DNA from: Lingula anatina | Lineage: Eukaryota; Animalia; Brachiopoda | Length of the DNA: 64,000 nucleotides | NCBI GenBank assembly: GCA_051362555.1 | Contig: CM120641.1 | Span: 9,982,001 to 10,046,000 of the forward strand | Direction: 5' to 3' | Shown: positions 7,229-50,500 of the stretch, piece by piece | Numbering within the stretch: the first letter of the stretch is position 1 | Layout of the letters: each line of letters begins with the position of its first letter | Program-made: the position numbers and the translations under genes | The notes under the pieces: generated by a model | What the model was told of the DNA's origin: nothing | Databases searched by the model: none | Seen by the model: the letters and a program-made list of their open reading frames with translations, nothing else

Positions 7229-9335
7229 CATGGCCGGATCAAGTCGTTAATTTGCCTGTGTCACTGCATTGGTGCACGTTGTCTTTACGTTCTCAATTAT
7301 TCCAACAGTAAGTGGTCTCATGACTCTTGGGATTCTAAAATTTGGATTTGTTTCCTTGCTCAAGATTTCTCTTCAATCAATATTCTAAATGAAATTACCC
7401 CTATAATGAGCAATATATGAATCAGTTTGTAAAATAGACGCAGTTACAAGCGTAAAATGCCCTTGTTTAAAACGATCTATATGTTGTATGTACCTCATCC
7501 TTTTTTTCCCATTTACGCCCTTTCGCAACTTTCACAACTTCAGGGTATGGTTTAAGTCAATCGAGTATCCTTTACCTTTATGGGAGACTAAGCGTGAACG
7601 CATATTTCTAAGTTTTTACAATTAAAATAATTTAGATGTTTTTTAACGTGGCATGTTAAGGTATGTAGTCAACGTAACGCTAACCAGGTCAAAACTCACT
7701 TAATTAAATAAATCGCCGACTTCCCGAATCGAATATGGAGAAAAATGACAATACCAAAGGCAATTTTTTAATTTGGTTTCGTGCCTGATCAAAAGTGCTT
7801 TAGCTTATTAAGCAAATTTCCGAAAAACCATAAACTGCTAAATGCCAGTAATCAATTTGACCAATGATGGAACTTTGGAAAGCGGACGATACCCAACGCC
7901 CTCATAAATTATTTTACTTCAAATCGTGGCATTTATTTAGATGGGGCCCTTGTAATAATACGTCGCAACGTAATGCATCCGTAGTTATGCCAGATCCAAG
8001 AAAAATAACCGCTTTTCAGACAGAAACAAAAGAAAAATAGTCGTTGTTAGCAGTGAAAATGCAGTTTTATATACTTCATCAAACGTGTTTCTGTAACCCT
8101 TACTCAACCGAGACAAATGAGAAGGCAACCAGACTGAGTTTGCAAATAACAAAACCCCGATTGTGTGTAGTGCCAAGCACAACTTGCCACCGCCTGAACT
8201 GAATTCATTTCTTATAAAATATTGCAGGCGAATATTATAATGCTCTGATTTTGGAAAGTTAGATACTTGCCATCTTGCACACGTTCAAATAAAATGAAAA
8301 ATATTAAAAAAAGAACAAAGTGGTTTTTGAAGGTAGTATTAGTACTGGTTAGCAAGAAAGCACTCTAAACTGGTTCTGAACATTATTGATTGAAATTCAG
8401 TGTTCCTACAAATTAAGCCGAAAGAAAGTTACATGTACCGGGAAATTGGTCTTCATTACATTTTAAAATCTCGAATGATAATTTATAACACTTGATAATC
8501 TACTCCGTTCATTCTTCATATAACGCACTCAAATCACGTGTTCAAAGAAGTAGATTTACCAAGCAAAAATTTGAACAAATTATCTTCGGCTGGCTACTAT
8601 CAAAAACATTCTCAAAGACAAATATCACCTTTTGACAACAATTAAATGACAATTCACCAATAACTATACAATAATGACGACAAGCTGGAGCTTACTTCGT
8701 GATTGATGAAATCCTTACCATTTAACAACACCTACAAACTTTTATTCTTTTCCGGAAACTTTATTCAAAATGTATCATCGCATAAAATTAACCAGGTGGG
8801 CTTTCAGCAAACTTTGTGTAACAATATAAATAAACTCCCTCATTTCAATGTTACAATATGCAACAAAATACGGAAACCCACAAAGATTTGGCATGACAAT
8901 TATGTATTTAAACCGTCTTCTCATAAGTAGTATTTACAAATGGTACTGATCAAATCCACATTTAATGATTATTACAACTAGCAAAAGAAGTAAGACTAAG
9001 GCATTGGCATAACCTACCAAAGTAACTACTTCATTTTAAATGAAGTGTTCCATCGTATCATTTAACGGTTCCTTTCTTGGAATTATCCTTAATTTTGGTT
9101 ATTATTCAAACATTCGTGCAGTCATGTCTTTCTTATAAAACACTAATTTTTCCAAATCAATTCTCATTGTTTCTCAAGTATGCTTCACCACATTTTAACA
9201 TTCTTTAATTTCCTTGACATGATATTGCCAAATTTCACAAAACATACACGTTTCCAGATATGCACTTAATAGAACAGCTTTCTACGAAACCATGGTTTCA
9301 GCCACTCTAGTCCGATCCAAACCAAGGAGTAGCAG

Positions 9336-12300
9336 CTACTTCTTCTTGCCAGTAAGTCCAGCTCCGGCGTTGAATTTGAAGTGAATGATGTCCCCATCTA
9401 GCACAACGTAATCTCGGCCCTTCTGGAGGTACTTTCCTGCAGCCTGAAAATACACTTGTTTTTACGATTTCTTCATATGAAAAAAAAAAAAAAAAAAAAA
9501 AAAAAATCAGGCGGAAAATGATGCATTTTGATAACTTCCTAATCCACAAAACAGGTTGCTTAAAAATTAGACAGGCAGTACAGCAAAAGAGAAAAATGAT
9601 AAAGTTCTCGTTGTGTGAGTTTTTTAAAATGTTTATTTTTTTATTGTTATCATTATTAATTTATTTACTTTTTTCATCTTTTCTTTTGCATCTCCTTTGT
9701 GAATTGATTCAGATAGCCTACCCATGAGAAAATTTAAATCGTAACAGCTTTAGCCCTTTAAGTCACTATAATACAGTGACAAGAAAAGCCAAGCTAATAT
9801 CTCTGGTCTAGACAGAAACCCGTCCTAATTCTATTAATTTCCTATTTCAAATTATTTCTAGCTTTATTGTTGTAATGAAGCAGGGGCCTGTAACATGCCT
9901 TGCTGTATTTTTGAAAAAGACATAAAATGTGCCAATAATGCCAATAAATTGCCAATAGACAATTTTTTTCCAATTTTTCATTTCCTTAACCCAATTACTT
10001 ACATTAAATAGTGTATCCAGACATTTTTTCTGTACACTAAATCCACTTCATCAGTACACTTTAAACCTTTTAATATCCTTTGTTTGACAAATATTTCACA
10101 ATAATTTTTGTTGTCAATAATGAAAAAAGGGTTATATTATATTCCTCTCCTTAATACATGAATAATATGGTAAAATTGTCTAATAATTTCCTTTGCTGTA
10201 TGTTCAAAGCACTATTTTTTACTTTTTTTGATAAATAGCATGCCATTTGTAGCTTGACAAGCAATTTGCAGTGGAGCAGTTAGTAAATGTGTTTGGTCTT
10301 GTAATACTTTCTCCTTTCAAACTATTTAGCCTCAGCACAATAGTTTTCAATTTTTAAAGAAATTTTTTTTTTTTTGAAACAACTGCAAAATATACAATAC
10401 TTCACTCATTATTTGGGTAGATACAGTAAACATGTTTATTGGATGAAAGGAAATTATCTCACAACTGAAACCTCCAAAGCATCCATTCACATAAAAACTT
10501 AATTTTGATATTTATTTAATCATGCCATGCCTTCAGAGAAATATATGCATCCACAATTAGAAAATTCCACTTAAAGAGTTCAGAGGAGGCCAAATTTCAA
10601 AGAATTTTCTTTCCTGTTTTTATTTTTTGCCAAACCATGTCCTGACTACATGAGATTTTCCTTTGAGGTTGGCCCGTTTTAGAAGATGAGGTGTCAAGCA
10701 GGCACACCTGCTGTCGGAGTTACGTGATGTGACACCACTCGTTCATGCCAGGAAAAACAAACGACAGACATTGTGCCTTCCTTACTGTGCAAATTAAACA
10801 ATTTCACATACATTGTAAAGCTAGCAAAAATGTTGAATTTTCAATTTAGTTACTCAAGGTGAAATACACCAGAACTTCAGTTACAGAAATGTATTATTTT
10901 TTTCTTTGATTATTCATCTAAAAACTGAAATAATTCATTATACTGTAACTAACAGAATAAATAGCAACAGACAGAACAAGACTAAAAGTACGGGGATATT
11001 TTGGGAACCTTTTGACATTAATCAAGTAACTTATTGTAACAGTATCACATAATTAAGCACACTAAACCTCAAATTCAAGTACCTCATCAGAGATAAATCC
11101 ATCAGCATATTTAGTGAATCTCATACAAGTATATCATTACTGTTAAAATACATGAAGTTAACTTATCAAGAATATATAACAAGGATGTCCCTAAATAGTA
11201 AAAGAATAGTGCCCTGGCACGCAGCTTATTTTATATCTTGGGTTTACCCTTTCTTCAAGTCTGTGTTAAACAATATGCAATGTATTTCGTAAAATCATCA
11301 ACTAGATTCAGAGCAAGCTGAACCCTACCTTGACTGCATTTTCACTGCCCAATTCCTTGAAATCATCAAATTTCATCACCTCAGCCATGATGAAGCCTTT
11401 TTCAAAGTCAGTGTGAATTTTTCCAGCCGCCTGAGGTGCCTTGGTGCCTTTCTGAAAGCATGAAAATTTCTTAAGATAAGTTTGTGTATTTAATACATCA
11501 TCTCATCACAAATGGAATTTTCGAATATCAATTCATCAATTCAGCATTCTTGACATTTCAGTAACCAGTGATTTCATGTCAATCAAATTGGGAATACACA
11601 ATAAACATTAAAAATTTTTAAGTAATAAGGATGTTAAAATTTAAATAATAATAATAATAATAAAGGTAAAATCAAACAATCATCAAAAAGAGTAACATTT
11701 TTACACAACTAATTCAACAAAAACAGTTTTAAATGAAAAAAAAAAAATTTGCATTACATAATGTGTGCATGCGTGTGTGTGTGTGTGTGTGAGCACACCT
11801 GCGTACACGTCTGCATTAAAAATTTTGCTAGAAAATGAGCTGAGGACTTTACTCAGTCTTCAACTTTTAGAGCTTATAATATTATTTTAATTTTTTTCCA
11901 TTTTATTTTCACACTAAATACAAAAAGAAAATTAAAATAAGAAAAAACATGCCACTGGAATTTCCCAGCAGTTGGAACTGTGCATGTCCAGTAATCATTA
12001 ACTTTAGATTTTTGAAGTGTTAGACAAATATCTGTCACCACAAGACAAGTGTTAACTATGCTATTGCATGCAAGGACCATAAAACTTCTCTTCATATTGA
12101 CAGTGCCTGAAACGCATCTCTTACATAAATTTTAAGTTTTTATTACATGGTGTTTATCACTATTATATAATAACTTGCATGTAACTGACTAAATCTGTGC
12201 ATTAATATTTGTCGTAAATCTGTGCATTAATTATGTTCGTATCCCTCGTTGATAAATGTAGTTTTCACCAAATGGTACCAATGCCCTTGCAAGAGAATTC

Positions 12301-12439
12301 TAGTATGGTAATGGCAAAATAAGGAGTTTCCCTGTAAATTCTGTGGGGGTCATAAATTTCCAATCTTCAAAGTGTTTTCATTTTCTAAAGTGTCTACACA
12401 CAAACAATGCATGCACCCCCCCCAGCCCCCCCCCCCCCC

Positions 12440-12475
<36 letters not shown>

Positions 12476-15400
12476 GAATAAATAAAATAAAATAAAATAC
12501 ACAGAACAATAACTGCTGTATTTTCCTTTCCAGAAAGTGTATTCACTGTATTTTCTAAAACCTAAACAGTATACAAATGCATCAAAGTATACTAACATAA
12601 ACTTTTAAAGGCATGTTTAATAAGAAAAAAAAAAAACCACTGCACTGTACATAATCCACCTTTGCACAGCTACAGTACATTTGCTCGGATTGACTGCAGG
12701 CTTGTGGATGGCTGTGTGATTACAACAACTTCTCAACCCCATTTTAATTTTCAATATTTGTCTGTATGTGCACTTTTAGAGATGCCCAGCAACTGTAGAA
12801 TAACTCCTCAGTGGAAAGGGAGAAATGAAACGTGACTGCTAGAAATTATGTTTTTTTAGGTTGACTGCATATTATCATCACAATGTCAGTTAGAATTTAT
12901 CATGTCGTGGTTTAGCAGGGTTTTTTTTGTGTTTTCTTTTCTCTTTAGAAGAATTACAGAGCAACTGGTTGGAGGTTAGCGAACTGACATACAAGGTAGT
13001 ACAACTGGCCGACCTTTGCTACCCACATAAGTATAATTTCAATAGCACTTGGGAAATGAAATGAGTTTTAAGAGATCAAATTTTTGTGACTTTTCTTTAA
13101 GGTTTTAGAATATTTTCTTCCTACTGTTCATGTTAACTATACCTACCAGTTGGTGAAATTAGGTACCATACACTAAACCTTTTATTTCCTAATAATTTTT
13201 ACTGCCATGTTGAAATGATATGCATACATCTAAGACTCAACGATGATATCTAGCTGAAACATGTTAAACACTTATAATTTGTTTATTTTAATAATCAACA
13301 TGCCTTTCCTGAATTTTTTACAGAAATGCATTCCTTATGGCTAAAGAATTAAAACTAGCTTGGTTGCTACTTTCAAGACGAAATTTTCAATATGGCTGCA
13401 AATTTGTGAGGGGAAAAAACAGCCAGAAGCAACATATATACTGTATTTTTTATTCTAGAGATGTATTCCTTGTTGAAAGAACACATTAGGATAACTGACT
13501 ATACCCTATCAGGATCCAGTTATTAAAAAATCAAAATGGCTGCCAAAACATACAGCATAGGATAAAGAAGAGCTGCAAAATCAGTATATTTCCGGTATTG
13601 TCTAATTAAAATCATATATGAATTAAAATTTTTCTGTCCATTGTGGTATTTTGATCCTAAACTATCTCTATCAGCTTGTTTGACATTCAACTTATGTTTG
13701 GTGAAGTTGTAAGCCCCCTGAGTAGTCCAGTTGCCATTCCCAAGGGTCCCAGTGTTGAACTATGAAATGCTATTTTCTATGAGTAAAAGAATCATAATTT
13801 AGGGTTTAAAAAGTCAACTTAGCCTGGGTTTTCTTTTCAGATGCTACTTTCAGGACATTGAGCACTTTTCAAAATCACAGATGGCCACCAGGTCTTTTTT
13901 AGTTGAACAAACATAATTTACCAGCTTTTTGCCTGCCTTTTCCTTACCATTTTGGTGGCCATTTGTTTTGTTTTTTTTAAATACAATTTGTTGAGATGTA
14001 ACAAACAACTGCAACATGCACCTCTTTACTCAAAAATGCACACGTAACAAACTGTTGGCCATCTTAGATTATGCAAAATGCTCAGTGTCCTGGAAGTAGC
14101 AACTATTTTCTTTTTTCCCATGGTGGCCATATTGAAAAATGCTCAATGCTTCAGAAGTAGCAACTAAGCTAATTTTACTTCTCTAGCTCCAAAGAAGGCA
14201 TTTCTGTAAAAAAAGTTTACAGGACAAATCATTGCAGGGTGCAAAAATTAGGCCTATGAGATTGGCAACTAACTATAAGATTAGAAGATGCAAAAGATAT
14301 TTAATTTTGATCATTAAGCAGAGAAAGGGGTTAGCATGCTTCCAAGGTCAAGATTACAAGTGCAAAATTTACATATCTAAACATAAATACTACTGTTTTG
14401 CGAATGTTTTTTCTGAAGGATCAACCTGACAGCTAAGCTCCTTTGAAGTTGAACTATTGGTCTCATCCTGTCACTTTTCAGCAGCATTTTACTCACCTCT
14501 GTTCAACTTGCCCTTGACCCTCTCTTCTTAATCATTCCAATCTTTCTTATCTCTTGACCCTTACCGTGGTCCCCATCACTCCAAGTCTTTGTCAACAACA
14601 AGAGTTGGGAATAACATGTTGTTGAACAATAAGTTACTTCAAAGTGAATGAAATGTTAGAAAAATTTTGAAATGCTCAAGCCTGGTTCAAAAGTTACCAT
14701 TCTCAGGCCTCCTAGAAATCATCAGTGGACCCACTGCTCAGACGGTGAGTTCAGCAATTCAAATCCAGTACCAAGATAAATGTACATCTGGTGACATATT
14801 TCTGCACAGTTGTGTATACAACTAGCGTAACGTGACCCAAGTGATCGGCCAAAGAACAGAACTCACCTGAATGGTCCATGCTTTAACTTCATCCTCCCCA
14901 GCGGTGAAATAATACATCAACTGCAGTGCACTGTATCCAGTTAGAATTATCTTAGACAACATACTGCAAGCACACCATAATTTGAGAGTGAAAATAGTGA
15001 AAACGATTTCATAACAAAAGTTAAAAAGCTGAATGTTATAAATTGAAACACAAATTGCAATCAGCAGCTATTAGGAATCCAGGCAGAAATATCAGTTCCA
15101 TTAATAATTATGTGACATTTTACACCTCAATGTAATTTTCAAATGTTTAAAAAAAAGTTAATGGACTACTTTGAGCAATTTTTTTTAAATACTGCCAAAG
15201 GTTTAATAGATACTGTTTTAAAATTTGTTGAAACATGGAAGAATTAAAAATGAAACTGACTTTTCAATGGAAACATCAGCTATGGACAAAAAAGGAAAAA
15301 GAAATGCAGAAAAGCATTGAAAGTAAATAATTAAAAGCAGGCACTGCAAAGGCAAGACAGAACAGTAGTGCTATGACTGCTGTTCTAAGATTTGCATGTT

Positions 15401-18400
15401 CTTTATTAAACGTACTTTCCAATTGCAAAAAAAAGCCAATAACATTTTCAGTACTGCCTTAAACAATGGTTTTTGTTTTATTATTCGAAATTAGAACATG
15501 TCAGCGATTGAGCCCAGCACTACCATTGTCAGCGTTAATCAAAGGGGCCAGTTGTAAAAAAAAACTGGACCCTCCTTGACCGCTGGTCTGACCTGTACTG
15601 TCCAGGCTTTCACTTCATCTTCACCAACTGTGAAAAAATAGTGCAGTTGTAGAGCCTTGTATCCAGTCACTATAATCTTGGACAGAGCACTGAAATGTTG
15701 CATAGCAAATGTAAACTGCGGTTCCCGGTTTCATTTGGATTTAAAATTGCTATAGAAAAACAAAAGTCAAGATTAGTATTGGTTCAATCAGTGATGGAAA
15801 TAATCAAAATCTCAACAATAATCTTGACTGAGATAACCCATCCAGTTTCAGATACCTATGTGAAATTATATCAAATGCACACACATATTTTTAATGTTAC
15901 AAAAGGCATACATACACAAAAAATATGTGCTTGTATCAGTTCAACAATACACATTTTCTTTTAACCATTAAGCTTAAATAATCCAATTCGTTATCCCAAA
16001 TGTTTGTGGCACAATATAACATGCTATCAAAAAGCCAGACACATTAAAACAAGAACAATGTCCAGACTTGTAGAACCTGTCACAGGCTGCATTGGCCTAG
16101 GTATTCAAAATGTTAAAAGATTAAGTTTAAGAAGAAAAAGATTAATTACATTATCATAGAATTGCCTGACTGCAGGTAAAAATATATATTTATTATGCAC
16201 CTGGTGATTTTGTTCTCCTTTTCATAAGTCTCTCTCTCTTCTGGTGACATGTCCATTAATTTCAGCTCCAGAGACCCACTGAATGGGATGACACTGGCAC
16301 CAGGGTCATTGGCATCTACCCATTCCTTTATTTTCACCAGCCTAGAAAAAGAGGAGGTATTGTGGATGTCATGTGAACAAAAAAATTTCATAAATTCATG
16401 CTAAACTATGATAGTTATCTGTTAACAAGATGAAACATGATAAATCCTTGGTAAAATTGAAATAGATAGATTGTTTTAAAAATAAATAAATAAATAAATA
16501 AATAAGCAAACAAACAAACAAGCAAACAAACAAACAAAATAATTACATACTACAAAATATAACAAATATTACCTTTTAAAATATTCTATATAATGGATGC
16601 ACTTCTCCAAAATAAATTTTGTCTCTGTATCAATGTTAAAAACTTTCTTACTTTATCATAATCAAAGGCATGAGCATTTTCCAAAACTAAGAATAAAAAG
16701 ATATACTCACATAAAATTTCACTTACACCAGATTAGTGTGTTCACTTACCACTTGTTCTTTTTTCTGATAAAATCTTTTTCTGAGAGATTAATTAGATAA
16801 ATCATTGGCTTCAGGGTTAAGAAGAAGTGCTGGTTTATATATTCAATCTGTAAAAAAAAAAATAAATGAAATAAAATAAAAATATTTTTAAAAAAGTTGA
16901 CGTAGAATCTAGAAGTCACACAAAATAATGTAAATTGCTTAGTTTTATATTTTCCTTTACAAAATAGAAAAGTAATTTATACTAAATGCAAGTAAGATAG
17001 AAGTCAAAATTTTTGAAAATGTAATGCAATTTAATGTCAACTGCCAGTGGTGCCAGAAAAGTTTGTTTTGGGTTGAGTTGGAGGGGGTGGTTGGGAGTGG
17101 TTGGGTGGGTGGGTGGGGGTGTTGTGGGTTTGTGTTCCTGAATTCTTACACCCCATTTCCATAGATTTTTAGATCGATCTATCCCTGTGGGGAGTCTCAC
17201 TAGATTACTGTCAGCTTGGCCAGCTTAAGCATCTGTCCCGCCTACTAAAAGCTGTAAGTGGGTAATTAACCATGGTGCCCGCTCGGCTGACTGCAATTTA
17301 GCGTGAACCCCCAGGGAGTTAGGTCGATCTAAAACTTAATCTTTAGATCGATCTAAATCTCTGGGAAAGCACCCTTAGAGGAGCCAAGTTGTTTTATCGA
17401 AATGCGCTTCTCCTAAACTAACTAAAAATCAATCACCCTTACCTCTTTTGCATCATACACAGCAGCTTTTCTCAAATGCTTCTTTTCTTCTACAAGAAGT
17501 CTTTTTAACTTGCAAAAGAAATCCTAGAATCATAATAATGAGTTGTTGTTCGATATGTGTAATCCAACGAATGTGATAACAAAAGTTTTCATTTATAATG
17601 GCTGCTAAATAATGATTTAATCGAGATATACCAAAGACTTTATATGTCATTGTTTATGTAAGTAGAATGGCACACCTATCCAAAGTTTTAGTACAACTTA
17701 CATATTCAGGTTTCTTCTTCTTGTCATTTCCTCGAACTGCCAATTTTTCTAAAGATTCAAGCTGTTTCAAAATATAGTCTTCATCTTTGAGTCGCAATTC
17801 CTCCATGATGATGTCAAGGTCACGTACAGGGTCCACATCACCTTCCACATGGGTAACATCTTCATCTTCAAACACTCCTGAAAAAAAAGAGAAGTTTTTG
17901 ACAAATCTCACAAACTATTTTTGACAATTTCATTTAGTAAGCATAGTAATGATGGAAATTACTTACCTTAAATAATAGTACAATTTGCACAGTATGTCCA
18001 ATATATTTCCTCATAACACTCTAGCTCTGCTGTATATTCATTAATGATAATGTCTATTACAAAACACTCTGCACTAGGCACGTTTAAAATAAATAATGCA
18101 TCAAAAAGGGACTTTTTGGACTCTGTTAATGAAACAATAATGGGATTACAAAAATGAATCATGCAAGGTGTGTCATTTGACAGCAAATTATGTAGGTACA
18201 TAGTAGAACAGAACAGACAACTCACTGGCCATGTAGAACAGCGCATCGCAAGCACGGATGTGTGAAAGGAAGGCATTTCCAAGACCCTGACCTTCACTTG
18301 CACCCTTCACAAGACCAGCAATATCCACAACATTCAGAAATGCTGGGACCTTACTGAAAATAAATAATCAAACATCAGTGATATATCTGACAACCAGAAA

Positions 18401-19876
18401 AACCAATACTTTTTTAAAGTATTTTTTTGTCTCAAACAAAGAAGGAATTTGCTTTACTTGCTGTGATAAACTTACCTTGCTGGTTTAAAGAAATTGCACA
18501 AGAAATCATATCTTTCATCTGGTACAGGAACCCGACCTAAAATATTTTGCATGAATAAACATTTAACATTGCTTGGTGTCCAGAATCATCTCTTCATAAG
18601 ACCAAATAAAGTTATTGTGAAAACTATAGTTGAAAAAAAAATTATCACCTTCCTCTACCCTTAAAATTATCACATACCAAAATGAATTTTCTCTCTATAT
18701 ATATGTACATTTACAAAATGCAAAATTAACAAAACAAATGACTGGATAATAGTTAATATCTTTATCCATAGACACCTAACTGACTGTTAGATGGAATTTC
18801 TGTAAATGGTCTGTTCATAATGACTTACTTTCATTTGGGTCAATGGTGCAGAATGGAAAATTTTCAGCTGATGCCTGGCTTTTTGTTAAGACATTGAAAA
18901 ATGTTGATTTTCTAAAAGTAAAATAGGAGATTTATCTCATTTTCTGTGACTTAGGTAAACACCAATACATACTGACTCATTATTTCATGTCAGCATATTA
19001 ACATATATACAAATACATTTACATCTAACAGCACTTGTAACATACAAATATATTAGAAAAGTTTTTCAGTCTTATCTAAATAAGATCAACGTGCTATATA
19101 TAACCCCCAGTCTTTTATGTCAAACATCATTTGAATAATTATGCTACTCTGTGTGCAGCAGTAATGCATCATGAATTATGTCAAATTTACAGCTTTTACG
19201 AACTGAAGGCACAGTTAAGAAGGTCTAGTTTACTATCAGAAATATGAAGAAAGTGCACATTAATTTTTTTCTGACTGATTGCGTGATTAATTTATCCTTT
19301 GACATGTGAGTTTATTTGAGTTGTGTTAGAAACTGGTGGTAGTGATTTAAATGCCTTACAGGGAATCTATGTTTACTTCATATGTAACTTTAGGTGAATG
19401 GATAAATTAATGTCAATTTGAAGAATAGTATTGTCTAGACATATCAGGTTTTAACTGGTGGCAAATACCCTTCTAAAGACCCACATTTTTAAATCTGTCT
19501 ATTGCTCTTAAAATTTTTATATATTTCTAATAAGATTGAGTTTTTAGTAGTGTTAATTTTAAATGGTTCGATGAGTGTTTTAGATCCAAATATTGTAGTA
19601 ATTTTAATGATTGTAGTTATATTATCAAATGTAAGGCGCCTTGAGGTAGTATGTGAGGTACCATATAAGAAAGTTCAAACTTATTATTATTATATTAGTG
19701 TTACCCATTAGTCCTCAGCACATTGCAAAAAGTGAAAATGCTAGGTGAAGGAGAAATAAGATAATTTCTTACCCAACATTAGGCAATCCTACAATACCAC
19801 ATTTCAAGTTGGTTCCCACTCTGCCAATGAGGACTGGGGGCTTCTCCTCTGCCTCTCCCTTCTTCTTCGGAGGCAT
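9336..19876 (-). CDS. OLA1: Obg-like ATPase 1 (YchF/OLA1 family), multi-exon
   Basis: Coding exons: 19876-19773 (MPPKKKG...GIVGLPNVG), 18911-18829 ([20 protein letters not shown]), 18536-18476, 18353-18226 ([26 protein letters not shown]), 17877-17702, 17523-17443, 16847-16750, 16341-16201, [15689-15593 or 14963-14867], 11451-11329 ([24 protein letters not shown]), 9443-9336 ([13 protein letters not shown]). All introns are GT-AG with compatible phases. Confidence 0.97.
13380..14280. repeat. degenerate interspersed repeat built of AAAATGGCNGCC-like modules in an OLA1 intron
   Basis: Recurrent CAAAATGGCTGCC/GGTGGCCAT(T/A)TT motifs in both orientations and a duplicated AATGCTCA...GAAGTAGCAACTA unit (14078-14105, 14138-14166). 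Confidence 0.55.
14867..14963 (-). CDS. OLA1: OLA1 mutually exclusive exon, copy b (97 nt)
   Basis: tgcag|T ATG TTG...ATT CAG|gtgagt encodes (S)[32 protein letters not shown]; same length and phases as copy a. Confidence 0.9.
15593..15689 (-). CDS. OLA1: OLA1 mutually exclusive exon, copy a (97 nt)
   Basis: ttcag|T GCT CTG...GTA CAG|gtcaga encodes (S)[32 protein letters not shown]. Confidence 0.9.
17149..17374. mobile_element. fold-back MITE (TAGATCGATCTA family), copy 1
   Basis: Subterminal inverted repeats TTCCATAGATT..TAGATCGATCTA / TAGATCGATCTA..ATCTCTGGGAA, with TTA on both flanks. Homologous to the copies at ~49828 and ~50246. Confidence 0.8.
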
Positions 19877-47592: not shown

Positions 47593-50500
47593 ATGGGCGA
47601 AGATGACCATTTTGAACACCGCACCTATGCAAAATTATCTGAAAGTAGACCGGTTGGTAAGTAAAAGCATGGTGAATCAGTTTTCGTGTTACGCGATACA
47701 AATTTTAATACGTTTTCGTTGAGAGTTTAAAGATAATCTTATGTATAGTTTTCTATGCTCTCTTTACTAATGATAAAATAGAGGCATGTAATTTCAAGAT
47801 GTTTAATGACAGAAAGGATAAGTTTGTATATATTACCCTGCATCATACATGAATTTCGAAAATTTCTACTAACTAACTAACTAATACGGCAATGCTTGGG
47901 TCTTAGGTGATATTTGGATCCAGCGTAATTATGCAGGCGACTGGAGCAATAGTTGCAAAATATATAACGAACTGAGAAAACATTCAAAATTATGTGACGC
48001 AATACTCATTGTGGATAAAAGAGAATTTCCAGTCCATCGGGTCATCATGGCTGCTTGCAGTACATATTTCAAAGCTTTGTTTACCAATCAGCTGAGTCCA
48101 TATTTCAATAGCTCTGCTCAGATTGAGTATCACATAATCGAAGGAATAGAGCCGGATATCATGGAAATCATCATTAATTATGCCTACACTGAAGAAGCTG
48201 AAATTACCCCTGAAAACATTGAATTATTACTGCCAGTTGCCGACCAGTTCCATGTATTTGGTCTACTTCGTTTATGCGTCAACTTTTTGAGACAAAACTT
48301 ATCAGTTGAGAATTGCATTGGTATTTGGATGCTAGCCAAACATCATTTCTGTACCAGTCTCGAACGCGCAGCATGTCGATTTCTGTTGAAGCATTTCACG
48401 GAGGTGGCCACTTACAGCCAAGAATTTGTTCAACTGTCCGTAGAGGAAGTACTCAGTGTACTCTGCTCAGAGCATCTTAATGCGACAAACGAAGAAACTA
48501 CATTTGAGGCTGCTATCCGTTGGATTTCACACAACCCGGAAAGTCGCAAAAGGCACATACTTGACCTGCTTCGATGTGTCCGACTCGGATGGCTAAATTT
48601 CGAATATTTTGACACCCAAATAAAGGAAAATGAATTCGTCAAAGCAGAACCCAAATGTGCTCCTCTTTTGGCCGAAGCGCAAAAACTACTGGAGACTCTT
48701 GATATTGGGATGTATAGTAACGCCGACTTTACCCACCCCCTCACACGCCCCCGCATCCCAGTGGACGTATTGTTTGTTATCGGAGGATGGACCGAAGGGA
48801 ATGCTTCCAGATTCATCGAAACTTACGACGCAAAAGCTGATCGCTGGATCCCATTATCCACTACATATGAAGACAAAGGTAAACTTGAAAACGCGTGAAT
48901 ACACATCCATTCATGTTTATAAATCGGTACATGAAGCATAGTAAAGAAAAACTTGTAGCTGGTGAGATATAGTAGCGTTGAAATTTGAAGAAATCCTCGG
49001 GTTTATTTTTTATTTTTACTTTTTTGTGTCAGTTGCGACAGCCTATCACGGTTGCGTATCACTGAGAGGTCAAATTTACGTCATTGGAGGATTTGATGGA
49101 GTTGAACATTACAATCAAGTGAGAAGTTTTGATCCAGCACGAAAGAAATGGTCCGTTATAGCTCCTATGCACCATAAAAGGTAATCTACTCCATACACCA
49201 GGCTACAGATACGATATGATAAATATGATAAGAAAGTGCATTACGTTTAAACTAACATCACTCTAGTTGTATTGGCATAGATGGCGATTGGCGTAGATCT
49301 TTAAAAAATTAAAATACATGTAGGCTTTTGGTCGCGTGTTGAATAACTGCCTTTTATGTCTATTTTATCTAGATGCTATGTCAACGTTACTGTGCATAAT
49401 GACAAAATTTATGCCATGGGAGGCTATAATGGGCATGCTCGCCTACCAAGTGCCGAAAGATATAACCCCGACACTAACCAGTGGAGCCAGATTGCGGCAA
49501 TGCATAATGCAAGAAGTGACGCAGCCGCCTGTGCGTTAAGAGGTAAAGTTTATCTTGCATTTCTTATCTCCGTCTTTCTCTCTCGCCTGGTACGCTTGAA
49601 CATAAGAATCTTTCAAGAATAAAGATAGAAAGAGACTCTATAATGTCTAAACACAAGCAATCTAACTACATACTATGCAATAAGACCCACCATTACTTTT
49701 GACGTATTTGTTTCAGAGACTAATTTCCTCCTGAGATTGTATTCGTAAAATAGAATTGTGATTTCCCCCTACAGAACAATTTTGTTCACCATGTAGCTCA
49801 GAATGATGAATTCGCCAATACGACTGTGGATCGATCAATCACCTAGGGGATTCTTTCTAAATTGCAATCAACGAAAGCAGCTTAGATGTCTGTCACGCCT
49901 ACTGAAACTGCTAGGGGGTAATTAACTATCGTTTAGCAGCTTCAGTAGGTGTGTCAGACATCTTAGCCGGTTAAGCTGAAAGCAATTTAGCGAGAAACCC
50001 CTCGGAGATAGGTCGATCCTGTTAGATCGATCTAGGTATGGGAACTCAACCCGGTCTTACTTCTTCTTCAACGGTTAGGATTTATCTGACTTTATTTACA
50101 TTCCAGACTTTGTGTACTGTATTGGCGGCTTCAATGGCTATGATTGCCTGGACACTGGCGAGTATTACAACCCTCAAACTGACCAATGGACATATATAGC
50201 GCCAATGTCAAGTCCAAGAAGTGGCGTTGGTAAGCGGTTGTCTTACACCCCATTTCCATAGATTAGATCGACCTACTTTAGATCGACCTAACTCCCTGGG
50301 GGTTCACGCTAAATAGCTGTCAGCCGGGCGGACACGAAAGTTAATTACCCTCTTACAGTTTGTAGTAGGCGGGACGGACATTTAAGTCGGATTATCTGAA
50401 AGTAATCTAGTGAGACTCCCCGCGGGGATAGATCGATCTAAAATCTATGGGAATAGAGCCTAATTAAATGTTTGAGCTGTTTGCATGTTACTGGATGGGT

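What the first reader, a model, noticed from the sequence alone, without database searches (positions are those of the whole stretch)
14867..15689. OLA1 carries a tandem pair of mutually exclusive 97-nt exons
Seen: two homologous exons of identical length and phase (2 to 0), both with intact splice sites and open frames: [32 protein letters not shown] and [32 protein letters not shown]. Many differences are synonymous, implying both copies are under purifying selection. Because 97 is not a multiple of 3, including both or neither shifts the frame, so productive splicing must pick exactly one. Established: this segment leads into and begins the TGS domain of YchF/OLA1. Inference: two OLA1 isoforms with different G-domain/TGS junction surfaces. 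I cannot tell from the window whether this has been described in this lineage.
Basis: partly seen in the sequence, partly recalled or inferred. Interest (0 to 1): 0.72.

Follow-up and report, generated by a model that had tools for sequence, protein, structure and literature searches.

The report
Swappable exon pair in Lingula OLA1
In the lamp shell Lingula, the gene for the ribosome-associated ATPase OLA1 carries two old copies of one exon, RNA reads show that transcripts use one or the other in sample-dependent proportions, and the choice is likely steered by competing RNA folds and would give two slightly different proteins.

Summary
Confirmed. Coding exon 9 of OLA1 exists twice (9a 15689-15593, 9b 14963-14867; 97 nt each, phase 2 to 0, AG/GT intact). 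The 9a form equals the RefSeq Lingula anatina protein. RNA reads from 4 of 9 listed runs show all four predicted junctions and no 9a-9b or skip-both junction. Two runs use only 9b (0 of 84 and 0 of 83 junction reads for 9a); two use 9a in 67% and 58%. Synonymous sites are saturated (pS 0.79, pN 0.15), so the duplication is old and both copies are constrained. An unnamed metagenome contig (L003) holds a second intact pair of this exon; five clitellate-like loci spanning both flanks, and mollusc proteins, show one copy. A tree cannot tell shared from independent origin. A hairpin over the 9a donor and a downstream site complementary to sequences after both exons suggest docking/selector control, with modest statistics and one contrary observation. 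The seven substitutions miss the published ribosome and partner contacts; 9b loses two basic residues. This is a new member of a known kind. I found it neither in print nor in earlier notes of this scan, which do record such pairs in other genes.

The parts
15593..15689 (-). OLA1 coding exon 9a (97 nt, phase 2 to 0; residues 292-323, A form)
   Evidence: junction reads in X4 and X7
14867..14963 (-). OLA1 coding exon 9b (97 nt, phase 2 to 0; residues 292-323, B form)
   Evidence: junction reads in all four runs
16201..16341 (-). constitutive exon 8 (141 nt), spliced to 9a or 9b
11329..11451 (-). constitutive exon 10 (123 nt), receives 9a or 9b
9336..19876 (-). whole OLA1 coding span, 11 exons; the A form translates to exactly P0004 (399 aa)
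15515..15600 (-). predicted hairpin over and behind the 9a donor (-33.7 kcal/mol)
   Evidence: z -4.5 in a window chosen around it; rank 2 of 351 windows by energy, 8 of 351 by z; prediction only
15540..15556 (-). candidate selector after 9a (the 3' arm of that hairpin)
   Evidence: 11 Watson-Crick pairs, a 2-nt bulge and 6 more pairs with 13018-13000, -26.8 kcal/mol; prediction only
14843..14852 (-). candidate selector after 9b (weak)
   Evidence: 10 bp with 13014-13005, -18.3 kcal/mol for the duplex; not above controls
13000..13018 (-). candidate docking site in the intron after 9b
   Evidence: best partner in the intron for the 9a selector, and the same region is best for 9b; two read-derived alleles weaken it
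14822..14866 (-). in-frame read-through after 9b (14 codons and a stop), the tail of RefSeq isoform X3
   Evidence: no distinct terminal exon evident in the read depth

Best explanation
The Lingula OLA1 gene holds two tandem copies of exon 9 that are spliced one at a time in sample-dependent proportions, the choice is likely set by competing RNA pairings backed up by decay of mis-spliced messages, and the two proteins are predicted to differ only subtly at the hinge between the ATPase and TGS domains. Shown: the two exons, exclusive junctions, sample dependence, age and constraint. Inferred (about 50%): by default a local hairpin hides the weak 9a donor, so 9b with its consensus donor is used; when the 9a selector instead pairs with the docking site 2.5 kb downstream, 9b is looped out and 9a is joined to exon 10. 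The two states are close in predicted energy, so a splicing factor or transcription rate could tip them. Inferred (about 75%): messages with both exons carry an early stop and are degraded. Inferred (about 45%): 9b removes two basic residues (K302, H307) from the last ATPase-domain helix and the first TGS strand, which would tune domain motion or RNA/partner affinity without changing catalysis.
For: Junction reads, 9a in/out against 9b in/out: X1 0/0 vs 48/36; X3 0/0 vs 52/31; X4 10/16 vs 2/11; X7 14/18 vs 12/11; only these four joints are listed. Share of 9a 0 (upper bound 4.3%) in X1 and X3, 0.67 and 0.58 in X4 and X7. pS 0.79, pN 0.15, Fisher p 2e-8; flanking introns no more alike than shuffles. 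Both copies keep all 9 columns invariant among 175 distinct homologous segments. X7, a diverged individual by its many UTR differences, uses both exons and shows 8 run-specific differences in about 371 nt of constitutive coding exons but none listed in the 194 nt of 9a and 9b (p about 0.035; 14 weaker rows were not shown). Hairpin. Docking: the 9a duplex was matched by 0 of 12 real control stretches and 1 of 36 shuffles; the two-selector sum by 1 of 12 and 1 of 36. Freeing the selector costs 21.5 and opening the dock 2.1 kcal/mol against -26.8 gained. L003 shows the same layout: 816-834, after copy 1, pairs 18 of 19 with 2795-2813 (0 of 30 shuffles), and 2343-2361, after copy 2, pairs with the same site at 84%. 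Steric and U2/U12 mechanisms do not fit. No K/R at 298 or 302 occurs in only 17 of 175 distinct segments.
Against: The docking test was set up after the match was seen, so its p values are optimistic. The 9b selector is not above controls (matched by 8 of 36 shuffles and 5 of 12 real stretches). A broader complementarity scan gave no significant score for the Lingula introns (best 5 of 30), nor did the pairing of the first 100 nt after each exon (z -0.74). X7 carries two differences inside the docking site (3 reads each) that weaken the duplexes to -21.4 and -12.8 with no compensating change listed, yet X7 uses 9a in 58%. L003 has no significant hairpin after copy 1 (z +0.76), its pairing arms belong to a local repeat, and no non-coding sequence is shared with Lingula. 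All seven residue changes occur in single-exon orthologues, and the published 50S and OsGAP1 contacts lie outside the exon. Joints with under 3 reads are not listed, and tissue, stage and genotype of the runs are unknown.
Confidence: 0.65

Rival explanations
1. The pair is exclusive and regulated, but by splicing factors acting on a weak 9a donor plus decay of frame-shifted messages; the predicted long-range pairings are chance.
For: 9a donor GTCAGA against consensus GTGAGT for 9b; both-exon stop 85 nt before the next junction; weak statistics for the 9b selector and X7 alleles that damage the dock; shortage of variants inside the exons would also fit exonic regulatory elements.
Against: The 9a selector duplex beats nearly all controls and both selectors point to one region; L003 has the same layout with an 18-of-19 match; the skip-both stop is at the edge of the recalled decay rule yet no such joint is listed.
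Confidence: 0.4
2. The two proteins are functionally equivalent. Each copy is kept only because some cell type has come to splice it, so both stay under ordinary OLA1 constraint.
For: Every change is seen in single-exon orthologues; most animals sampled manage with one exon; pN between the copies (0.15) is like that between species (0.15-0.18); known contact residues are outside the exon.
Against: All-or-none use in two runs; long retention of both copies; a second animal with an intact pair whose first copy also has V298 and V312; the rare loss of the basic residue in 9b.
Confidence: 0.45
3. The difference between runs is genetic (individuals or cryptic species that lack or silence 9a), not tissue- or stage-regulated splicing.
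For: Both 9b-only runs come from one study; no DNA run of those individuals was laid; depth over the 9a bin is 0 in both.
Against: X1 and X3 reads are as close to the window as those of X4, which uses 9a (206 of 262, 161 of 199 and 151 of 196 reads at 99% or more), while the most diverged run, X7, uses both.
Confidence: 0.15
4. One copy is a dead pseudo-exon, or the pair is an assembly artefact.
For: The RefSeq X3 protein has N for the conserved T321 in 9b.
Against: Both exons are spliced on both sides in reads, and no read difference is listed inside 9b; the copies differ at 28 of 97 nt, mostly silently.
Confidence: 0.02

Closest known systems
Homologous mutually exclusive exons from tandem exon duplication (human catalogue PMC8373072, supplementary table searched; PMC5740500, supplements searched)
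   Same: Adjacent homologous exons of equal length and phase, one per transcript, swapping a short homologous protein segment.
   Different: OLA1 is absent from those tables (0 hits; ACOX1 as positive control 5 hits). Here the host is a near-universal translation factor in a brachiopod.
Downstream docking-site/selector splicing of Drosophila 14-3-3zeta, Mhc, MRP1 and Dscam1 exons 4 and 9 (PMC6071210, abstract, introduction and start of methods read; PMC4691838, abstract and introduction)
   Same: Sequences after each alternative exon are complementary to one site in the intron downstream of the cluster; PMC6071210 proposes that such selectors arise when a stem arm is duplicated with the exon.
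   Different: Here it is a prediction without conservation or mutational support, the second selector is weak, and the first selector has a competing local hairpin over its own donor.
YchF/OLA1 subfamily of Obg-family P-loop NTPases (human OLA1 2ohf; E. coli YchF-50S 8kie; PMC11814078, passages and section 7 read)
   Same: Same three-domain protein by sequence (E 3e-193 to 2ohf) and fold.
   Different: No alternative exon in this segment among the 322 homologous proteins with the segment; one 483-aa sturgeon model repeats an identical segment, which was not followed up.

Membership tests
Homologous mutually exclusive exons | Adjacent homologous exons of equal length and phase with intact splice sites | tested here: met
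Homologous mutually exclusive exons | Each exon is spliced to the same upstream and downstream exons | tested here: met
   four joints
Homologous mutually exclusive exons | Both-included and both-skipped forms absent or rare | tested here: met
   no such joint among those listed, against 261 exclusive junction reads; joints under 3 reads are not listed
Homologous mutually exclusive exons | Both copies under purifying selection | tested here: met
   pS 0.79, pN 0.15; invariant columns kept
Homologous mutually exclusive exons | Both isoforms made as protein | not testable with these tools
   no proteomics; only the A form was read as a full-length database protein, one cluster member was not read
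Homologous mutually exclusive exons | Pair conserved in related species | tested here: inconclusive
   both used in diverged X7; second pair in L003 of unresolved origin; no other brachiopod genome on hand
YchF/OLA1 | Obg-type ATPase domain, helical insert and C-terminal TGS domain | tested here: met
   Pfam PF01926 and PF06071; model and fold search
YchF/OLA1 | G4 motif (N/T)(M/L/V)xE | tested here: met
   NLSE in P0004; motif as given in PMC11814078
Downstream docking-site/selector system | A selector after each alternative exon complementary to one shared downstream site | tested here: inconclusive
   clear for 9a, weak for 9b
Downstream docking-site/selector system | Conservation or compensatory change of the pairing across species | tested here: inconclusive
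   X7 alleles weaken the dock with no compensation listed, on 3 reads; L003 has the layout with unrelated sequence
Downstream docking-site/selector system | Disruption and compensatory rescue change exon choice | not testable with these tools
   needs a minigene
Steric-hindrance exclusivity | Branch point of the second exon too close to the first exon's donor | tested here: not met
   intron 629 nt; nearest upstream AG 67 nt before 9b
U2/U12 incompatibility | Mixed major and minor spliceosome sites | tested here: not met
   all introns GT-AG, none with the recalled U12 donor consensus

The most novel reading that the evidence does not exclude
OLA1, a near-universal ribosome-associated ATPase, has an RNA-structure-driven switch exon that is either ancestral to brachiopods and annelids or arose twice at the same exon, and it gives cell types two ATPases that differ in charge at the ATPase-TGS hinge and so in ribosome rescue or stress response.
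Probability: 0.2. Interest if true: 0.65.

Novelty: new member of a known kind. Interest (0 to 1): 0.42.

Why it matters
OLA1/YchF is conserved from bacteria to humans and the job of its TGS domain is still argued (PMC11814078 proposes first contact with the stalled ribosome through it). A natural pair of variants that differ only at the ATPase-TGS hinge, with all-or-none use in some samples, offers a ready test of what that hinge does. A second animal with an intact pair of the same exon hints that this segment is a repeated target for diversification. It is also a two-exon candidate for docking/selector splicing outside arthropods, simple enough for a minigene. The kind of event is well known and the protein effect may be small.

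Tried and rejected
No whole genome is held for this window, so genome-wide repeat checks were limited to the window. Pairing between the first 100 nt after 9a and after 9b: not significant (z -0.74); two of 36 other segment pairs near z -2.8 and one at -2.9 were not pursued, as expected among so many tests. A 9-bp helix over the 9b donor: fold not above shuffles (z -0.92). Upstream docking (intron before 9a against later sequence): nothing above shuffles in Lingula or L003. A tree of 22 exon sequences had no well-supported branch; AU tests rejected neither Lingula-only grouping (p 0.48) nor first-with-first (0.37) or second-with-second (0.35) grouping. Cluster members of 27 representatives gave no pair of same-species proteins that differ only in this segment outside Lingula (segments compared in 24, 52, 65; large clusters were listed only in part, 15 of 29 and 15 of 38). 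A review table (PMC10144078, passage) assigns an adenine contact to human 'Ser310' in the TGS domain; residue 310 of the human chain is Thr and the source paper is not held, so I did not use it. The model gave secondary structure only, so residue burial was not measured. Literature: 0 papers hold 'OLA1' with 'mutually exclusive exons'; none of the 25 listed or the 20 mentions OLA1 or Obg-like ATPase; searches listed nothing on this event by title or abstract. MetazExp (PMC8728262, search listing only) mentions Lingula and its database may hold the event; bioRxiv supplements and subscription journals were not seen.
Full report
Observation. On the minus strand, 15689-15593 (9a) and 14963-14867 (9b) are 97-nt exons with AG acceptors and GT donors, 511 nt after exon 8, 629 nt apart and 3415 nt before exon 10. 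They share 69 of 97 nt; 9 codons are identical, 16 differ silently and 7 differ in residue. Either alone keeps the frame; both or neither give a stop. An 11-exon model from 19876 to 9336 with 9a translates to exactly P0004, which the protein collection names Obg-like ATPase 1 of Lingula anatina. With 9b the protein is also 399 aa and differs at A292M, V298L, K302S, H307M, F309Y, V312A and V322I.

Splicing. Four of nine listed RNA runs were laid on 9000-16500. Only four joints are listed, the four predicted. Reads into and out of 9a against 9b: X1 0/0 vs 48/36, X3 0/0 vs 52/31, X4 10/16 vs 2/11, X7 14/18 vs 12/11. No 9a-9b or exon 8-10 joint reached the listing threshold of 3 reads. The 9a share is 0 (upper 95% bound 4.3%) in X1 and X3, 0.67 in X4 and 0.58 in X7. 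Tissue, stage and genotype are unknown, and both 9b-only runs come from one study. RefSeq holds the A form and a 337-aa X3 model in which 9b reads through into the intron; a third cluster member was not read, so a full-length B model may already be annotated.

Age and constraint. Synonymous sites are saturated (pS 0.79, bootstrap 0.58-0.98) while pN is 0.15 (0.05-0.26), and the flanking introns are no more alike than shuffles. Both copies keep all 9 columns invariant among 175 distinct homologous segments. X7 differs from the window at many UTR positions, yet uses both exons and shows no listed difference in them against 8 in the three neighbouring constitutive exons (p about 0.035; 14 weaker rows hidden).

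Other animals. A metagenome scan kept 79 loci, the first 22 of them eukaryote-like by identity; I examined 29. Sixteen carry this exon between AG and GT. Fifteen closely related, clitellate-like loci show one copy, and 5 of these span both flanking exons. L003, a 3142-nt contig without flanking exons, holds two intact 97-nt copies 1451 nt apart (pS 0.64, pN 0.18); whether they are spliced is not shown. Its first copy shares V298 and V312 with 9a, but the Lingula copies share a rare S294 with each other, and a tree cannot choose between shared and independent duplication. Mollusc, arthropod and echinoderm clusters gave no alternative segment, which speaks only for annotated or assembled proteins.

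Mechanism of choice. Steric hindrance and U2/U12 mixing do not fit. Inclusion of both exons puts a stop 85 nt before the next junction; skipping both puts one 47 nt before the last junction, borderline for decay by the recalled 50-55 nt rule. The 9a donor is followed by a hairpin that pairs the donor itself (-33.7 kcal/mol; 2nd of 351 windows by energy, 8th by z). Its 3' arm (15556-15540) can instead form 17 pairs with 13018-13000 in the intron after 9b (-26.8; matched by 0 of 12 real stretches and 1 of 36 shuffles), and the best partner of the sequence after 9b is the same region, though weakly. The two states are within about 3 kcal/mol. L003 shows the same layout from repeat-derived arms (18 of 19 pairs; 0 of 30 shuffles). 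Against this: the test was post hoc, broader scans were not significant, and X7 alleles weaken the dock although X7 uses 9a. I put the RNA switch at about even odds.

Protein. The exon codes the last ATPase-domain helix (293-303) and the first TGS hairpin (306-312, 316-323); Pfam's TGS model starts at 306. The fold matches solved YchF/OLA1 structures. Published 50S contacts are in the helical domain and the tip after helix 7 (PMC11814078, section 7), and the rice OsGAP1 contacts begin at Lys-325, which aligns just past the exon (PMC12480156 passages; alignment). All seven changes occur in orthologues, but 9b lacks a basic residue at both 298 and 302, as only 17 of 175 distinct segments do, and carries about one unit less positive charge. 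The same paper reports that the TGS domain shifts 10.5 A and rotates 22 degrees on ribosome binding, so a hinge-tuning role is plausible but untested.

Comparison and novelty. This is a member of the homologous mutually exclusive exon class by every feature testable here, and it works like a downstream docking/selector system without proof of membership. OLA1 is absent from three human catalogues' supplements and from my literature searches. Earlier notes of this scan hold no OLA1 pair but record similar pairs in HGSNAT and ACOX1 of this genome (unchecked), so such events look common in Lingula. Verdict: real, well supported, a new member of a known kind; interest 0.42.

Noticed in passing
window 17150-17400: A palindromic repeat in the intron after exon 6 gives the most stable fold in the gene and has copies near 49800-50450 (86% over 179 nt); it looks like a miniature inverted-repeat transposon.
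   Followed up: partly
window 14822-14866: RefSeq isoform X3 ends by reading from 9b into the intron, which would cut off most of the TGS domain; it also has N for the conserved T321, which no read here shows.
   Followed up: partly
window 9000-16500, run X7: This run is much more diverged from the window than the other three (16 of 250 reads at 99% or more), which suggests a distant population or cryptic species under the same label.
   Followed up: no
L003 800-1020 and 2327-2833: A roughly 120-nt palindromic repeat follows both exon copies, once after copy 1 (interrupted by another inverted-repeat element) and in four or five copies after copy 2; it supplies the predicted pairing arms.
   Followed up: partly
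L001 4131-5324: An intronless, full-length OLA1 reading frame in an 85-kb metagenome contig whose exon-9 segment is 81% identical to the query.
   Followed up: no
window 11452-14866: The intron after 9b has low but steady read depth (0-2.6) in all four runs, somewhat more than the next intron, which fits slow splicing or retention.
   Followed up: no
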